A stretch of 11,292 nucleotides of DNA, taken from the IMG/VR virus record IMGVR_UViG_2548876860_000007; one strand, written 5' to 3'. Shown in pieces: positions 7,172-11,292 of the stretch. The position numbers and the translations under genes are program-made. Within the stretch, counting starts at the first letter, position 1. Every line of letters starts with the position of its first letter. The notes beneath the pieces were generated by a model that saw only the letters and a list, made by a program, of their open reading frames with translations, was not told the origin of the DNA and made no database searches. Source of the DNA: a virus (Duplodnaviria; Heunggongvirae; Uroviricota; Caudoviricetes).

Positions 7172-8221
7172 GTGCGGGTATTACTTCGACCTGTTCTGGT
7201 ACCGGAACTCGGGCTGGTGATCGTTAAGCCGGGCCGTGAATCCATGCCGGTATTCCACAATACCCGGTTACTGGTGGAGCCGGAACCGAAAAGCATGCGT
7301 AATCTGCCGTCCGGGGTCGTTCCCGCCGTTCGCCAGCCGCTGGTGGAAGACAAAACATTGCTGCCGTTTTTCAGTAACGCACGGGTAATTCGTGCTGCTG
7401 GTGGTGCTGGTGCATTGTCTGACTGGCTGTTGCGCCATATTAAATCCTGCCAGTGGCCACACGGCGATTATCATCACAGCGAAACCGTTATTCACCGATA
7501 TGGTACCGGCGCAATGGTGTTGTGCTGGCACTGCGACAACCAGCTGCGTGACCAGACATCCGAATCACTCGAGCAACTTGCTCATCAAAACCTGTCAGCA
7601 TGGATGATTGACGTCATCGGTCACGCAATAAGCGGTACGCAGGAGCGTGAATTATCTCTGGCTGAATTATCCTGGTGGGCGGTCCGCAATCAGCTGGCGG
7701 ACGCGCTACCGGAAGCGGTATTACGTCGCTCGCTGGGATTACCAGCGGAAAAAATCTGCTCGGTGTACCGCGAAAGCGACATCGTACCGGGAGAGCAGAC
7801 CGCCACCAGCATATTGAAACAGCGCACAAAAAATCTTGCACCGTTGCCTCACGCCCACCAGCAACAGAACCCACCACAGGAAAAGACGGTGGTCAGCATT
7901 GCCGTTGATCCTGAGTCTCCGGAATCTTTCATGAAACGACCTAAACGTCGCCGCTGGGTTAACGAGAAATACACACGCTGGGTGAAGACTCAGCCGTGTG
8001 CGTGTTGTGGTAAGCCAGCCGACGATCCCCATCACCTGATTGGTCATGGTCAGGGCGGAATGGGGACAAAATCTCACGATATTTTCACGCTACCGCTGTG
8101 TCGGGAGCATCACAACGAGCTTCATGCGGATCCGCTGGCGTTCGAAGAAAAGCATGGTTCCCAGATTGATTTAATTTTTCGTTTTCTTGATCACGCCTTT
8201 GCAACCGGCGTGCTCGGGTAA
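7172..8221 (+). CDS. DUF968/YdfU-like prophage protein (349 aa) with C-terminal Cys/His zinc-finger-like motif
   Basis: GTG 7172 with GGAGG SD (7163-7167). C-terminal motif ...QPCACCGKPADDPHHLIGHGQGG...LCREHHNELH... Gene order hok, small gene, this gene mirrors the Qin hokD-rem-ydfU arrangement as recalled. Confidence 0.7.
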   Translation: MRVLLRPVLVPELGLVIVKPGRESMPVFHNTRLLVEPEPKSMRNLPSGVVPAVRQPLVEDKTLLPFFSNARVIRAAGGAGALSDWLLRHIKSCQWPHGDYHHSETVIHRYGTGAMVLCWHCDNQLRDQTSESLEQLAHQNLSAWMIDVIGHAISGTQERELSLAELSWWAVRNQLADALPEAVLRRSLGLPAEKICSVYRESDIVPGEQTATSILKQRTKNLAPLPHAHQQQNPPQEKTVVSIAVDPESPESFMKRPKRRRWVNEKYTRWVKTQPCACCGKPADDPHHLIGHGQGGMGTKSHDIFTLPLCREHHNELHADPLAFEEKHGSQIDLIFRFLDHAFATGVLG

Positions 8222-8233
8222 AAGAGGTTACTG

Positions 8234-8605
8234 ATGCGTATAGAGTTTGTTTTGCTTTACCCGCCGACGGTGAACACCTACTGGCGACGTCGTGGCAGCA
8301 CATATTTTGTATCAAAAGCCGGTGAGCGTTATCGCCGTGATGTGGCGCTTATTGTTCGCCAGCAGCGGCTGAAATTAAGCCTGTCCGGAAGGCTGGCGAT
8401 AAAGATTATTGCCGAGCCACCGGATAAGCGCCGCCGTGACCTGGACAATATTCTGAAAGCACCGCTGGATGCACTGACGCATGCGGGGCTTCTCATAGAC
8501 GACGAGCAGTTTGATGAAATCAATATTGTGCGCGGTCAGCTCGTTCCTGGTGGGCGACTGGGCGTGAAGATTTGCGAAATCAGAGGTGATGGTAATGGGG
8601 CGTGA
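8234..8605 (+). CDS. rusA: RusA Holliday-junction resolvase (123 aa)
   Basis: N-terminus LLYPPTVNTYWRRRG and catalytic-region motif DKRRRDLDNILKAPLDALTHAGLLIDDEQ match the RusA family as recalled. AGAGG SD 8223-8227. Confidence 0.9.
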   Translation: MRIEFVLLYPPTVNTYWRRRGSTYFVSKAGERYRRDVALIVRQQRLKLSLSGRLAIKIIAEPPDKRRRDLDNILKAPLDALTHAGLLIDDEQFDEINIVRGQLVPGGRLGVKICEIRGDGNGA

Positions 8606-8945
8606 TATGTATGAGGTTTTAGATCGCTGGGGGGCATGGGCTGCAGCAGAAAATAGCGGTGTCGATTGGCAACCGATAGCAGCGGGCTTCAAGGGGCTTT
8701 TGCCACATGGCAAAAAGTCACGTCTCCAGTGTGATGATGATGAAGGCATCATGATAGACGGTTGTGTGGCTCGGTTGCGAAAGTATAAACCAGAGGAATA
8801 TGAGCTGCTCATAGCTCACTTTGTTATTGGTGTTTCTCTACGCTCAATCGCGAAGAAACGCAGGTGCTCAGATGGAACTATAAGAAAGGAGCTGCAAACT
8901 GCATTAGGCTTTATTGATGGATGTATATGCTTGATTCTATCATAA
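8595..8945 (+). CDS. Late-gene antiterminator Q, QuuD/phage-82-type (Phage_antitermQ family)
   Basis: MGRDMYEVLDRWGAWAAAENSGVDWQPIAAGFKGL...CDDDEGIMIDGCVARL... parallels the QuuD N-terminus as recalled. GAGGTG SD 8583-8588 favours ATG 8595; alternative starts at GTG 8586, ATG 8589 or ATG 8607. Overlaps the rusA stop. Confidence 0.8.
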   Translation: MGRDMYEVLDRWGAWAAAENSGVDWQPIAAGFKGLLPHGKKSRLQCDDDEGIMIDGCVARLRKYKPEEYELLIAHFVIGVSLRSIAKKRRCSDGTIRKELQTALGFIDGCICLILS

Positions 8946-8958
8946 GTTATGACTGTTA

Positions 8959-9345
8959 CTACTCGTTTGCTTGAGCTTTCGATTCGGCGTCAGATAAAGC
9001 ATCAATACGAATATTTATGTTTTTTAATAGCTTATTGTCTAGAACGATAAGACATTGGTTGTAGTGCGCAATTTGGTCTGGTGTTAGGTTAGGGTTGGCC
9101 AGGCAGTTCGTGATGAATTTTCTGGCCGTTTTTATTTCCCTTTTCATTCTTACATCATTAAGCGTAGGCAAACCTATGTAAGCGATAAGAAGAATTACCA
9201 CATGAGATAAGCCGACAGCAGCTCCAGGCGCCAATGATTTGAAGAAGGCTAATTGAGGAAGCCAGTCAAAAAGGAAATTCAATCCCGCAGTGATAAGGGT
9301 GGTAAACCATGCCTGCATTGCCAGGTAGGATTTAGTGTTCGCCAT
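8959..9345 (-). CDS. Predicted membrane protein (128 aa): two N-terminal TM helices plus charged C-terminal tail; third gene of the reverse operon
   Basis: ATG 9345..9343 directly abuts the upstream TGA (9348..9346). AGGAAGG SD. Hydrophobic stretches YLAMQAWFTTLITAGLNFLF and AAVGLSHVVILLIAYIGL. Stop lies 13 bp from the convergent Q stop. No family recognised. Confidence 0.7.
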   Translation of the reverse strand: MANTKSYLAMQAWFTTLITAGLNFLFDWLPQLAFFKSLAPGAAVGLSHVVILLIAYIGLPTLNDVRMKREIKTARKFITNCLANPNLTPDQIAHYNQCLIVLDNKLLKNINIRIDALSDAESKAQANE

Positions 9346-9591
9346 TCACCTTCCTGCACTTGCTTCGTTGCGAGTTTTGAGTTCGCGTAGCAGTAGCGCC
9401 AACTCTTCTGCGTCATTTTCGTTTCTAACGCTGACTTTCCTTTTAGCGGTTCTGCCTTCAGGATCGGTGTAGGTTAGTTCAATATACGCATTCGGCTTTA
9501 CCCAAACCAAGAACCTAAGCACAGCATATCTGACCGTCGCTGCGACAGCCATGAATACAGTGATGTAAAGCATAATGCTTAGGATTGACAT
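9346..9591 (-). CDS. Predicted small membrane protein (81 aa): one N-terminal TM helix plus charged C-terminal region; second gene of the reverse operon
   Basis: ATG 9591..9589 lies 3 nt after the upstream TAA (9597..9595). SILSIMLYITVFMAVAATVRYAVLRFLVWV hydrophobic segment. No family recognised. Confidence 0.7.
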   Translation of the reverse strand: MSILSIMLYITVFMAVAATVRYAVLRFLVWVKPNAYIELTYTDPEGRTAKRKVSVRNENDAEELALLLRELKTRNEASAGR

Positions 9592-9594
9592 GAT

Positions 9595-10473
9595 TTAAAG
9601 TAGTTTCCTATCTGCCGCCGCTCTGTGGCGTATAACCTTAGTAATACTATAGCGTGGTTTAGACAGCGCGCCATTTGTTTCTTTTGTTGTTTCTGTCAGT
9701 TCTACAACAAAAAGATCACCCTTACAGAATGCTGCTTGGTTGTGTTCAACCCGTTCAAGAAAAGCCTCATCTTTCATAGATGCGCTAACTTCTTCGCCAT
9801 TTGGCAGGATGATATCCCAGCTTTTTCCTTGCTTGAATCGAACATTAGCAAAATGTACATTAGCTTGGCGTGTCGTTACGTGCGTTTTCTCGACAAAGGT
9901 GGATTTTGCAGTTTTAAAACTTACTGCTTCAGCTTGCGTCACCCTGACTACCTTATGCTTCTGCTGTGAAACTGAGAACGTGGATGGTTTTTCAGTCTGC
10001 AGGGGTTTATAGATTAATTTATCCAGTTCTTTTCGGATGATTGGACTGGTTATTAATTTTTGAATGTCGTTACTGCATTTAACCTTCTCACCATCCACTT
10101 CGATTTCTGCTGTATCTTTTTGTTCATCGACGACAATGGAGCTGATTTTACGCCCTTTGAGCCATTCGATTATCCCGAGTACGCCACCTGCGGCAACTCC
10201 ACCACCTGCAACGAGGCCAAGGGCGTTAATAGTTTTTATGCTCCCCATCACAGCAACAAGCAAAGTAAATGAACCTTCTTTTGTTGCCTTGATGTTGACT
10301 TTCGGCTCTGCTGTTTCGCCATTAATTATTTTTTCGGCGTGTTCAATCAGGGCACTAAGAGAGGTTAAGGCTTCGCCTAATGTTTTCGCGTCGATCTGAT
10401 TATCTGCGTATGCCTCTCCACCGTAGGCAATTTCGATTTCTGTTATTGGCATGTTTTCGAGTTGCTGCGTCAT
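9595..10473 (-). CDS. Predicted membrane-anchored protein (292 aa from ATG 10473; 303 aa from GTG 10506) with glycine-zipper TM helix and ~190-aa C-terminal domain of unknown function; first gene of the reverse operon
   Basis: Track ORF 9595..10506. ATG 10473 preferred because AAGGA lies 8 nt upstream. Hydrophobic glycine-rich helix INALGLVAGGGVAAGGVLGII flanked by charged regions. No family recognised. Confidence 0.7.
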   Translation of the reverse strand: MTQQLENMPITEIEIAYGGEAYADNQIDAKTLGEALTSLSALIEHAEKIINGETAEPKVNIKATKEGSFTLLVAVMGSIKTINALGLVAGGGVAAGGVLGIIEWLKGRKISSIVVDEQKDTAEIEVDGEKVKCSNDIQKLITSPIIRKELDKLIYKPLQTEKPSTFSVSQQKHKVVRVTQAEAVSFKTAKSTFVEKTHVTTRQANVHFANVRFKQGKSWDIILPNGEEVSASMKDEAFLERVEHNQAAFCKGDLFVVELTETTKETNGALSKPRYSITKVIRHRAAADRKLL

Positions 10474-10518
10474 CAAAAGCATCCTTTGCGCAAGAGAAAT
10501 AGCCACAGGATACAGATA

Positions 10519-10548
10519 ATTATGAAAAAATCACTAACGCGTACGCAA
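10519..10548 (-). promoter_or_regulatory. Candidate sigma70 promoter of the reverse operon (TTGCGT -18- CATAAT on minus strand)
   Basis: Minus-strand -35 TTGCGT (10548..10543) and -10 CATAAT (10524..10519), about 45 nt upstream of ATG 10473. Confidence 0.35.
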
Positions 10549-10593
10549 AAACTATCTTAATCTGTTAAGAGTGGTCGCTTCGCCACACAGCTT

Positions 10594-10618
10594 AAACCCG
10601 CATCAAGCGGGTTTTTTT
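10594..10618 (+). terminator. Intrinsic terminator on the plus strand in the operon-to-tRNA spacer (possible displaced tR'-like element)
   Basis: Stem AAACCCGC atca AGCGGGTTT followed by a T7 run (10612-10618) on the plus strand. On the minus strand it lacks a U tract. Confidence 0.45.
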
Positions 10619-10700
10619 GTGCCACTTATCTCGGATAGACATGGTGAATGCGCTGGTGGAGGAGATAAGGGTGATTTTTAACCAGGTGATTTTTGAATGC

Positions 10701-10729
10701 TTGCAACATTGATTTCGTAACGTTATTAT
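10701..10729 (+). promoter_or_regulatory. Near-consensus sigma70 promoter directly upstream of the tRNA genes (TTGCAA -17- TATTAT)
   Basis: -35 TTGCAA 10701-10706, 17-bp spacer, -10 TATTAT 10724-10729. The tRNA 5' end at 10739 is about 10 nt downstream. Confidence 0.5.
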
Positions 10730-10738
10730 CCTGCGCCC

Positions 10739-10814
10739 GGCCCTTTAGCTCAGTGGTGAGAGCGAGCGACTCATAATCGCCAGGTCGCTGGTTCAAATCC
10801 AGCAAGGGCCACCA
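10739..10814 (+). tRNA. tRNA with CAT anticodon (Ile2 lysidine-type or Met), ileZ/ileX-like
   Basis: 76-nt cloverleaf folded by hand: acceptor GGCCCTT/AAGGGCC, D-arm GCTC...GAGC, anticodon loop CTCATAA, T-arm GCTGG TTCAAAT CCAGC, encoded CCA end. Confidence 0.9.
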
Positions 10815-10894
10815 ACCGCCACTAGCTCATCAGGAAAGAACGTCACCCTGTGCGAGATTCGGAGTCCCCGGTGGCGGTCCATTATCGGTATTCT

Positions 10895-10971
10895 GCGTTG
10901 TTAGCTCAGCCGGACAGAGCAATTGCCTTCTAAGCAATCGGTCACTGGTTCGAATCCAGTACAACGCACCA
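10895..10971 (+). tRNA. tRNA-Arg (anticodon TCT), argN/argO-like phage tRNA
   Basis: 77-nt cloverleaf: acceptor GCGTTGT/ACAACGC, anticodon stem ATTGC/GCAAT with loop CTTCTAA, T-arm ACTGG TTCGAAT CCAGT, encoded CCA. Confidence 0.9.
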
Positions 10972-10984
10972 CACTTATTTTCCA

Positions 10985-11008
10985 GGCTCGCTTCGGCGGG
11001 CCTTTTTT
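10985..11008 (+). terminator. Rho-independent terminator downstream of the tRNA pair
   Basis: Stem GGCTCGC ttcg GCGGGCC (UUCG loop) followed by TTTTTT (11003-11008). Confidence 0.6.
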
Positions 11009-11140
11009 GTATCTGCGCCACGCCCGGCGCATATCAACCACAGAGCCTTTCGGGGGGGAGCTTACGGAGTGGTCAGTGTGACTTTCTCTGTGGGCAGATC
11101 GCTCCCGGGCGTTGGCTCACCCACCCAAAGGAACGTCACG

Positions 11141-11278
11141 ATGTTTGGTATTTTTGGTAAAAAAGCCCGCCGAGCGGCAGTGGAAATTAAAAAGTTTGAG
11201 AAACGTGATCTGGCACAGGCGGTTATTAATGCTGCCTACCTGGTGGCCTGTGCAGATGGTGAATGTGAGGCTTCCTAG
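11141..11278 (+). CDS. Small ORF (45 aa) ending at an amber codon; possible N-terminal part of a TerB-like protein (tentative)
   Basis: ATG 11141 with AAGGA SD 8 nt upstream (MFGIFGKKARRAAVEIKKFEKRDLAQAVINAAYLVACADGECEAS). The ...LVACADGE... segment resembles the TerB-domain ADG motif. TAG at 11276-11278; the same frame continues KAKI... to the window edge. Confidence 0.35.
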   Translation: MFGIFGKKARRAAVEIKKFEKRDLAQAVINAAYLVACADGECEAS

Positions 11279-11292
11279 AAAGCGAAGATCGA

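What the first reader, a model, noticed from the sequence alone, without database searches (positions are those of the whole stretch)
10507..10738. Spacer between reverse operon and tRNA genes carries a minus-strand promoter and a plus-strand terminator: possible displaced late-control elements
Seen in sequence: a minus-strand TTGCGT -18- CATAAT promoter candidate (10548..10519) faces the operon. About 50 bp away, a strong plus-strand hairpin plus T7 run (10594-10618) would stop rightward transcription. A near-consensus plus-strand promoter (10701-10729) then drives the tRNAs. Established knowledge: in lambdoid phages the late promoter PR' and terminator tR' sit immediately after Q. Here Q is followed after 13 bp by the end of the convergent operon. 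Inference: either the cassette inserted between Q and its target promoter, or this prophage's late control is disrupted. Rightward late transcription would also run antisense through the cassette.
Basis: partly seen in the sequence, partly recalled or inferred. Interest (0 to 1): 0.55.

Follow-up and report, generated by a model that had tools for sequence, protein, structure and literature searches.

The report
Displaced prophage late promoter-terminator switch
The spacer holds the ordinary late-gene switch of a lambda-like prophage (late promoter, docking site for the Q antiterminator, and terminator), separated from gene Q by a 1.6-kb backwards-facing accessory cassette, which is the usual layout for this Q family.

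Summary
The key element was missed. Window 10524-10618 (+) is the late-control module (PR', Q box, tR') of the Q gene at 8595-8945, a Q21/Q933W-family protein (PF06530).

- **Layout:** A-tract, palindromic box CTAACGCGTACGCAAAAA, -10 TAATCT (10558-63), start at A10570, invariant GTTAAGAGTGGT, then the hairpin plus T7.
- **Conservation:** the block follows Q relatives in 81 of the 91 loci examined, from more than 20 enterobacterial genera, and occurs in 3702 of 5426 complete E. coli genomes.
- **Start site:** published mapping in Sakai Sp5 and K-12 DLP12 falls on the homologous A.
- **Q box:** its sequence covaries with four residues of Q's sigma4-like helix-turn-helix.
- **Terminator:** phages with lambda-type or 82-type Q share only the hairpin and what follows it.
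- **Cargo:** in 74 of 82 loci, variable cargo lies between Q and the block. It is almost all on the minus strand and is often a defence system.
- **tRNA promoter:** the 10701-10729 promoter is a separate tRNA promoter.

Late control is displaced, not disrupted. Late transcription does not cross the cassette. This is a new member of a known kind.

The parts
8595..8945 (+). Q antiterminator gene (116 aa), Q21/Q933W family
   Evidence: PF06530 at 3.5e-45, profile positions 2-112 of 118. Weak ECF sigma region-4 matches over residues 41-107. Distant match to the Q21 structures 6P18 and 6JNX. RefSeq names it 'antiterminator Q family protein'.
8959..10473 (-). Reverse-oriented three-gene cargo cassette: 128 aa, 81 aa and 292 aa
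   Evidence: ORFs. RefSeq CDS in the identical region of strain 20.1. The 292-aa protein matches PADLOC PDC-S42 at 3e-53 and NCBIfam LAPAL_fam at 9e-67. Loci with the same Q type carry different cargo at this position.
10519..10548 (-). Leftward cargo promoter: -35 TTGCGT (10548-10543), 18-nt spacer, -10 CATAAT (10524-10519); predicted start near 10512
   Evidence: Sequence. The -35 is invariant in class-1 loci. TAnnnT lies 16-18 nt away in 40 of 71 cargo-bearing loci against 1 of 8 cargo-less loci; background 5.7%. No transcript mapping was done.
10525..10530 (+). A-tract at -45 to -40 of PR' (UP-element-like)
   Evidence: A is 70-84% conserved at motif-relative positions -37 to -34 across 80 distinct loci. 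Its function is inferred.
10534..10551 (+). Q box, the putative Q-binding element: CTAACGCGTACGCAAAAA, palindromic core GCGTACGC at 10539-10546
   Evidence: 97-99% conserved. Box classes: GCGTACGC and GCGGWCCGC across the surveyed loci; ACGTACGT in DLP12; ACGATCGT in Sp5. The two main classes track Q clades. The only four Q alignment columns that separate them are L82 and D93-G94-T95, all in the helix-turn-helix. Binding was not tested.
10558..10563 (+). PR' -10 hexamer TAATCT
   Evidence: TAnnnT is 97-99% conserved at this position in 80 distinct loci. Mapped starts in Sp5 and DLP12 lie 7 nt downstream of the homologous hexamer.
10570..10570 (+). Predicted PR' transcription start (A)
   Evidence: Assigned by homology. 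In Sakai, the dRNA-seq start, the 258-nt length to the last U of the terminator, and the GU|AUU cleavage at +173 all fit L094 position 846. In K-12, the Cappable-seq start at 576452 equals the position I predicted before looking it up.
10564..10575 (+). Invariant start-spanning element GTTAAGAGTGGT; candidate sigma-dependent pause element AAGAGT at 10568-10573
   Evidence: 96-100% conserved across all Q-box classes. Phage 21 has TAAGCTG annotated as its pause element. The role here is inferred and the geometry differs from phage 21.
10594..10618 (+). tR' intrinsic terminator: hairpin AAACCCGC/GCGGGTTT plus T7, at +25 to +49
   Evidence: In 59 of 82 loci a hairpin with a T run ends 42-59 nt after the predicted start, and the hairpin sequences differ between loci. 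The same hairpin follows a lambda-type PR' (AACGATGGG) in phage Evi and an 82-type Q in PPompW.
10701..10729 (+). Separate tRNA promoter: TTGCAA, 17 nt, TATTAT
   Evidence: The stretch 10716-10760 (its -10, then the start of the tRNA) is 97.8% identical in Stx2 phage Stx2_95, and Sakai Sp5 has TTGCAG, 17 nt, TATTAT at the same place. A primary start driving the tRNAs was mapped there in Sp5.
10739..10971 (+). tRNA-Ile2 (CAT; ARAGORN calls it Met) at 10739-10814 and tRNA-Arg (TCT) at 10895-10971
10984..11009 (+). Second intrinsic terminator, after the tRNAs
   Evidence: 8 pairs, 6 G-C, followed by T6.

Best explanation
Window 10524-10618 (+) is the Q-dependent late-control module of this prophage.

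**The late promoter.** PR' is a sigma-70 promoter with a -10 at 10558-63 and a start at A10570. It has an upstream A-tract and a poor -35.

**The Q box.** The -35 and spacer region is occupied by a palindromic box that the Q protein encoded at 8595-8945 recognises through its sigma4-like helix-turn-helix.

**Without Q.** RNA polymerase makes an RNA of about 49 nt and stops at the hairpin plus T7 (10594-10618). Any read-through stops after the tRNAs, at 10984-11009.

**With Q.** After induction, Q docks at the box, loads onto the promoter-proximal polymerase and makes it resistant to terminators. The polymerase then reads through tR', the tRNAs and the second terminator into the lysis and structural genes.

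**The cargo.** Q acts in trans on DNA, so a cargo cassette can sit between Q and PR'. The cassette faces leftward and has its own promoter, whose -35 (TTGCGT) lies inside the Q box.

**The tRNA promoter.** The promoter at 10701-10729 makes the tRNAs independently of Q.

**Shown:** the sequence anatomy, its conservation, its linkage to Q, and start sites mapped in homologues.
**Inferred:** Q binding to the box, pausing, terminator efficiency, and activity of the leftward promoter.
For: 1. **Linkage to Q despite variable cargo.** The block is conserved after Q in phages whose intervening cassettes are unrelated. It is found in 81 of the 91 loci examined (80 from the genome scan and 11 fetched earlier), across many genera. 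It follows Q directly in 7-8 loci.
2. **Promoter signature.** The conservation pattern is that of a -10 element: T, A and the final T at 97-99%.
3. **Mapped starts in homologues.** In Sakai Sp5, the reported PR' start, the 258-nt transcript length and the RNase E site at +173 all fit the homologous A. In K-12 DLP12, the Cappable-seq start at 576452 is exactly the position I predicted beforehand.
4. **Q-box covariation.** Box classes follow Q clades. The only fully discriminating Q residues (L82, D93, G94, T95) lie in the helix-turn-helix.
5. **Precedent in phage 21.** Phage 21, from the same Pfam family, is annotated with a Q-binding element between -35 and -10, a pause element beginning at +2, a terminator ending near +50, and then tRNAs.
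6. **Conserved terminator position.** A hairpin with a T run ends 42-59 nt after the start in 59 of 82 loci, with different stem sequences.
7. **Mosaic joint at the terminator.** Phages with lambda-family or 82-family Q share only the hairpin and downstream sequence, and each has its own PR' upstream.
8. **Late genes downstream.** Holin, lysozyme and terminase genes follow in the identical genome.
Against: - There are no transcript or binding data for this locus or for a class-1 (GCGTACGC) box.
- The -35 is poor (AACGCG or TAACGC), so a consensus scan does not find the promoter.
- No clear -10-like pause element lies downstream of +1. The candidate AAGAGT spans -2 to +4, which differs from phage lambda and phage 21.
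- The box is an inverted repeat, whereas the Q21 binding element is a direct repeat.
- In Sp5 the homologous first hairpin is at least partly read through without Q, because a 258-nt RNA ends at a second terminator.
- The K-12 start is weak (strength 1.7). No K-12 3' end was found in one Term-seq supplement.
Confidence: 0.85

Rival explanations
1. The hairpin is only an insulator or terminator between the cassette and the tRNA operon. The true late promoter is the near-consensus one at 10701-10729, or late control is lost.
For: The 10701-10729 promoter has the best consensus match in the spacer. It lies directly upstream of genes that precede the late region.
Against: - Its predicted start lies about 3 nt before the tRNA, which leaves no room for a Q-loading site.
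- There is no terminator between it and the tRNAs.
- The same promoter occurs downstream of tR' in phages from all three Q families, so it cannot be specific to one Q.
- In Sp5 it was mapped as a separate tRNA promoter, distinct from PR'.
- Mapped PR' starts fall in the upstream block.
Confidence: 0.04
2. The conserved box is the operator of the leftward cargo promoter, bound by some other repressor. It is not a Q-binding element.
For: The box contains the -35 of the leftward promoter and is palindromic, like a typical operator.
Against: - The box is present and conserved in loci with no cargo and no leftward -10.
- Cargo content varies while the box does not.
- Box classes covary with residues of Q's helix-turn-helix.
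- No other regulator is consistently linked to the box.
Confidence: 0.07
3. The short PR'-to-hairpin transcript is primarily a trans-acting regulatory small RNA, like StxS. Its strong conservation would then reflect an RNA function.
For: The prematurely terminated PR' RNA of Sp5 gives the Hfq-binding sRNA StxS. The predicted 49-nt RNA has a 5' hairpin and a terminator with a U tail.
Against: - The functional 74-nt StxS comes from a region that is absent here.
- The most conserved bases lie at and upstream of the start, so the conservation is at the DNA level.
- There is no Rfam match.
- This reading is compatible with the main explanation and does not replace it.
Confidence: 0.1
4. The module is an inert remnant in a defective prophage. 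The sequence is intact but no longer used.
For: A neighbouring TerB-family gene is a pseudogene. DLP12, which carries a homologous block, is cryptic.
Against: - Q is full length.
- The block matches the family consensus at every highly conserved position.
- Lysis and terminase genes follow in the identical genome.
- Inducibility cannot be decided from sequence.
Confidence: 0.15

Closest known systems
Phage 21 late regulatory region (PR'21, Q-binding element, pause element, tR'), as annotated in OL657228 from Yin et al. 2019 and Guo et al. 1991
   Same: - Q belongs to the same Pfam family, PF06530.
- The Q site lies in the -35 to -10 interval.
- A TAAG motif sits at the start site.
- The terminator ends about 50 nt after the start.
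- tRNA genes follow, then the lysis genes.
   Different: - Q21 is 162 aa and only distantly similar (E = 0.002).
- Its binding element is a direct repeat of two 8-bp sites, while this one is a palindrome.
- PR'21 has a consensus -35 and a weak -10, the opposite of this promoter.
- Its pause element lies at +2 to +8. Here the TAAGAGT motif spans -3 to +4.
- In phage 21, Q abuts PR'.
PR' and StxS region of Stx phages Sp5 and Sp15 (Q933W; Sy, Lan and Tree 2020, PMC7547250)
   Same: - The block is homologous: A-tract, palindromic box, TAnnnT, GATAAGAGTGG, hairpin plus T7.
- The PR' start is mapped on the homologous A.
- A tRNA promoter and ileZ/arg tRNA genes lie downstream.
   Different: - The box sequence is TTTACGATCGTAAA.
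- Q is 144 aa (about 44% identity in my alignment) and directly abuts the block.
- A 258-nt RNA continues to a second terminator and yields StxS. That region is absent from the window.
E. coli K-12 DLP12: quuD, nmpC (reverse), essD
   Same: - The architecture is the same: Q, then reverse-oriented cargo, then the block, then the lysis genes.
- The Cappable-seq start falls on the homologous A.
   Different: - The cargo is a porin gene interrupted by IS5.
- The box is TTTACGTACGTAAA.
- There are no tRNA genes.
- The prophage is cryptic.
Phage lambda PR', qut, tR' (6S RNA)
   Same: The logic is the same: a late promoter, a Q site within the promoter, early termination without Q, and Q-modified polymerase reading through. 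Phage Evi, which has a lambda-family Q and the AACGATGGG pause element, uses the same terminator and tRNA region as the window.
   Different: - The Q family is unrelated (PF03589).
- The terminated RNA is 194 nt (from my own knowledge).
- The pause element lies at +1 to +6.
- Q is adjacent to PR'.

Membership tests
Q-dependent late antitermination cassette, Q21/Q933W family | Q protein of Pfam PF06530 | tested here: met
   3.5e-45, profile positions 2-112 of 118. Q933W, QuuD and Q21 match the same model.
Q-dependent late antitermination cassette, Q21/Q933W family | Sigma-70 late promoter (PR') downstream of Q | tested here: met
   Met by homology. TAnnnT is 97-99% conserved. Starts in Sp5 and DLP12 are mapped 7 nt downstream of the homologous hexamer. 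This locus itself was not mapped.
Q-dependent late antitermination cassette, Q21/Q933W family | Q-binding element at the promoter, specific to the cognate Q | tested here: inconclusive
   The conserved box covaries with residues of Q's helix-turn-helix. Binding cannot be tested with these tools. The box is a palindrome, not a direct repeat as in Q21.
Q-dependent late antitermination cassette, Q21/Q933W family | Sigma-dependent pause element (-10-like) in the initially transcribed region | tested here: inconclusive
   No conserved TAnnnT lies downstream of +1. The only candidate, AAGAGT, spans -2 to +4, just 9 bp after the -10.
Q-dependent late antitermination cassette, Q21/Q933W family | Intrinsic terminator shortly downstream of PR', ahead of the late genes | tested here: met
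   Hairpin plus T7 at +25 to +49. Conserved in position in 59 of 82 loci. Late genes lie downstream. Efficiency is unknown.
Q-dependent late antitermination cassette, Q21/Q933W family | Q gene immediately followed by the PR' unit (canonical layout) | tested here: not met
   1.6 kb of reverse-oriented cargo lies between them. The same is true in 74 of 82 relatives, so adjacency does not define this clade.
StxS small RNA | Homologue of the 74-nt 3' part of the Sp5 PR' transcript | tested here: not met
   The Sp5 region L094 897-1110 has no significant match in the window.
Any Rfam family in 10507-10738 | Covariance-model match | tested here: not met
   Only the tRNAs and sok reach threshold. Nothing in the spacer has E <= 1 apart from a chance microRNA-model hit.

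The most novel reading that the evidence does not exclude
The Q box is the shared core of two back-to-back promoters. The gap between Q and PR' is a widespread hotspot for accessory and defence cargo expressed in the lysogen. When Q docks on the box it covers the -35 of the leftward cargo promoter while it arms rightward late transcription. One protein and one site would then switch the prophage from defending the host to lysing it. A further possibility is that Q, with its sigma4-like fold, substitutes for sigma region 4 at this -35-poor promoter, and so activates PR' as well as antiterminating.
Probability: 0.2. Interest if true: 0.6.

Novelty: new member of a known kind. Interest (0 to 1): 0.35.

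Why it matters
- **Annotation.** RefSeq leaves this block unannotated, or overlays it with a doubtful 36-aa 'antiterminator' CDS. Yet it occurs in about two thirds of complete E. coli genomes. A defined -10, start, Q box and terminator allow late promoters to be placed in thousands of prophages, including Stx phages where PR' drives toxin expression.
- **Testable Q-site specificity.** The box-to-helix-turn-helix covariation predicts which Q residues set target specificity in the largest and least studied branch of the Q21/Q933W family. The prediction can be tested directly.
- **Cargo hotspot.** The interval between Q and PR' is a predictable place to look for prophage-borne defence systems. 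Kiwa, PD-Lambda-5 and several PADLOC candidate families were found there.

Tried and rejected
- **TATCTT (10553-58) as the -10.** I first took this as the -10, with a start near 10565 and TAAGAGT as a pause element at +2 to +8, by analogy with phage 21. I rejected it because that hexamer is only 59-78% conserved and is absent in Sp5 and DLP12. Both mapped starts fall 5 nt further downstream.
- **TGnTAAGAG as an extended -10.** Rejected. It lacks the T at position -7, and it would put the Sp5 start about 7 nt too far downstream to fit the 258-nt transcript and the +173 cleavage site.
- **An RNA stem between G[AT]TAAG and CTTA[AT]C.** The pairing covaries, but the 5' arm lies upstream of the start. 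I left this unexplained.
- **Rfam.** Searches gave nothing in the spacer.
- **K-12 3' ends.** The Term-seq supplement of Adams et al. 2021 had no entry near the DLP12 hairpin.
- **Unavailable data.** The Thomason 2015 paper and the Sy 2020 supplements are not held.
- **Small ORFs.** The 36-aa and 31-aa ORFs in the spacer match no family.
- **Literature on the hotspot.** Searches for a described Q-to-PR' defence hotspot found no direct statement.

Full report
**Context.** The window is the early-right to late junction of an E. coli lambdoid prophage. Positions 8200-11292 are 100% identical to strain 20.1 (NZ_AP027170). The gene order is ydaS/ydaT-like genes, replication genes, DUF1627, hok/sok, DUF968, rusA and Q. 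Q (8595-8945, 116 aa) is a full-length member of PF06530, the Q21/Q933W family. Yin et al. name the family that way. Thirteen bp after the Q stop codon, a three-gene minus-strand cassette ends (8959-10473). Its largest protein matches PADLOC candidate PDC-S42 and NCBIfam LAPAL_fam. The spacer 10507-10738 follows, then tRNA-Ile2(CAT), tRNA-Arg(TCT) and a terminator. In the identical genome the lysis and terminase genes come next.

**Checking the observation.** The hairpin is a good intrinsic terminator: 8 pairs, a T7 run, and -12.2 kcal/mol with z = -3.8. The minus-strand promoter matches only 8 of 12 consensus positions. The window holds 78 sites of that quality, so it needs outside support.

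**A conserved block linked to Q.**
- Phages with the closest Q proteins (73-92% identity) include Stx1_499, Stx2a_1447, mEp460_4F5, 569R4, SfII and Klebsiella phage phi9.1. All have a reverse-oriented cassette after Q, and the cassettes differ from one another.
- The only DNA they share with the window downstream of Q is about 10514-10623.
- In Stx2_95 (Q 57% identical) the same block follows the Q stop directly.
- A scan of one genome per species with a Q alignment returned 80 loci from more than 20 enterobacterial genera.
- Together with 11 loci fetched earlier, 81 of 91 loci have the block downstream of Q, giving 80 distinct sequences. Adding Sakai Sp5 makes the 82 loci used in the later counts.
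- A blastn search finds the block in 3702 of 5426 complete E. coli genomes.

**Anatomy from conservation.** In window coordinates:
- an A-tract at 10525-30;
- the box CTAACGCGTACGCAAAAA at 10534-51, with core positions 97-99% conserved;
- five poorly conserved bases;
- a hexamer TAnnnT at 10558-63, with only T, A and the last T at 97-99%, which is the signature of a -10 element;
- GTTAAGAGTGGT at 10564-75, 96-100% conserved;
- a short hairpin;
- a G+C-rich hairpin with a T run.

In 59 of 82 loci a hairpin with a T run ends 42-59 nt after the predicted start. The stems have different sequences, so the structure is kept while the sequence is not.

**Where transcription starts.** Two published data sets cover homologous blocks.
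- *Sakai Sp5.* Here Q933W abuts the block. Sy et al. report the PR' start, a 258-nt transcript to the tR' 3' end, and RNase E cleavage in GU|AUU at +173. All three fit only if the start is L094 position 846, the A in GATAAG-A-GTGG. The transcript then ends on the last U of the second terminator's U run (1103), and GU|AUU lies at 1017-1021.
- *K-12 DLP12.* The layout is quuD, reverse nmpC, block, essD. I predicted the start at NC_000913.3 577,229, which is U00096.2 576,452. The Cappable-seq table of Ettwiller et al. lists a start at exactly 576452 (+). The 777-bp coordinate shift is checked by the neighbouring listed start at 576081, which lands 7 nt after a TATTAT hexamer.

By homology, the window's PR' has its -10 at TAATCT (10558-63) and starts at A10570. 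The consensus scan misses it because the -35 is poor.

**The box as the Q site.** The box has two main classes among the surveyed loci: GCGTACGC in 60 loci and GCGGWCCGC in 17. DLP12 has ACGTACGT and Sp5 has ACGATCGT. All loci whose Q is at least 59% identical to the window's Q have GCGTACGC. Across the Q alignment, only four columns separate the two main classes without exception: L82/K, D93/E, G94/K-or-R, and T95/L-Q-A-N. All four lie in SLRSIAKKRRCSDGTIRKEL. That segment aligns to the region-4 helix-turn-helix of ECF sigma factors, and Q21 uses the equivalent motif to bind DNA. This is the pattern expected for a protein and its site evolving together. The box sits at -36 to -19. The phage 21 record annotates the Q21-binding element in the comparable interval, -27 to -12. 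Binding itself is inferred.

**The hairpin as tR'.** Phage Evi has a lambda-family Q (PF03589). Prophage PPompW has an 82-family Q (PF06323). Both share the window's sequence only from the hairpin onward. Upstream, Evi has a lambda-like PR' with the AACGATGGG pause element. So the mosaic joint between Q-plus-PR' modules lies at the terminator, as expected if this hairpin is the common late terminator. One caution applies. In Sp5 the homologous hairpin does not stop all transcripts, because the 258-nt StxS precursor passes it. In the window the next terminator lies after the tRNAs.

**The leftward promoter and the cargo.**
- In 74 of 82 loci, cargo of 0.3-2.9 kb lies between Q and the block. 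Its ORFs total 101.7 kb on the minus strand and 2.8 kb on the plus strand.
- A TAnnnT hexamer lies 16-18 nt from it (17 nt in 35 cases) in 40 of 71 cargo-bearing loci and in 1 of 8 cargo-less loci. The background rate is 5.7%.
- The leftward promoter is therefore real in the comparative sense and belongs to the cargo.
- Of 21 cargo proteins tested, the hits include KwaB (Kiwa), PD-Lambda-5_A, an NsnB/AriA-like ATPase, PDC-S20, PDC-S49, PDC-M68A and PDC-S42.

**The tRNA promoter.** The stretch 10716-10760, which holds its -10 and the start of the tRNA, is 97.8% identical in Stx2 phage Stx2_95, and Sakai Sp5 has TTGCAG, 17 nt, TATTAT at the same place. Sy et al. mapped a separate primary start there that drives the tRNAs.

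**Mechanism.** Without Q, PR' makes a short RNA that ends at tR'. With Q, polymerase leaving PR' becomes resistant to terminators and reads into the late genes. Q acts in trans on DNA, so cargo between Q and PR' is tolerated. The cargo faces away from PR', so late transcription never crosses it.

Two things remain open: how pausing is achieved, and what the invariant GTTAAGAGTGGT does. The only -10-like candidate for a pause element, AAGAGT, lies just 9 bp after the promoter's -10. An inverted repeat, G[AT]TAAG with CTTA[AT]C, covaries across loci but straddles the start site.

**Verdict.** This is an ordinary Q-dependent late-control module, a new member of a known kind. The alternative that late control is disrupted is not supported. 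The remark that late transcription runs antisense through the cassette is wrong.

Noticed in passing
window 8946-10533; loci L005-L093 between the Q stop and the Q box: The interval between Q and PR' is a hotspot for variable, almost entirely minus-strand cargo (74 of 82 loci). The cargo includes Kiwa (KwaB), PD-Lambda-5, an NsnB/AriA-like ATPase, PDC-S20, PDC-S49, PDC-M68A, PDC-S42, and nmpC in DLP12.
   Followed up: partly
window 10564-10569 and 10591-10596: The inverted repeat G[AT]TAAG / CTTA[AT]C covaries across loci (T..A 36, A..T 16, A..C 11; L026 has TTAGG/CCTAA). Its 5' arm lies upstream of the mapped start, so it cannot be part of the PR' RNA. Unexplained.
   Followed up: partly
window 10571-10681 (+): RefSeq annotates a 36-aa 'antiterminator' CDS here in related genomes. 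It begins at +2 of the PR' RNA and runs through the terminator. It matches no Pfam or NCBIfam model. Probably not a gene.
   Followed up: partly
window 8945-8959: Only 13 bp separate the convergent Q gene and the cassette, with no inverted repeat or terminator between them. Cargo transcripts may run antisense into Q, and early read-through may run antisense into the cargo.
   Followed up: partly
L094 870-896 (Sakai Sp5), homologous to window 10594-10618: Sp5 has this hairpin plus T7 about 50 nt after PR'. The published 258-nt StxS precursor nevertheless reads through it to a second terminator. The first terminator is not discussed in the parts of the paper I read.
   Followed up: no
window 6400-6574 (+): A hok/sok-type toxin-antitoxin locus: Rfam sok RF01794, 114.9 bits.
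   Followed up: no
window 11069-11278 (+): A TerB-family (tciA-like) ORF ends at an in-frame TAG. RefSeq marks it as a pseudogene with an internal stop in the identical genome.
   Followed up: no
window 10739-10814: ARAGORN calls this tRNA-Met (CAT). RefSeq and the Sakai annotation treat the homologue as tRNA-Ile (ileZ type, CAT anticodon).
   Followed up: no
window 4292-6792: The window is mosaic relative to strain 20.1. That strain carries QueH and an NgoMIV-type restriction-modification system where the window has different genes and hok/sok.
   Followed up: no
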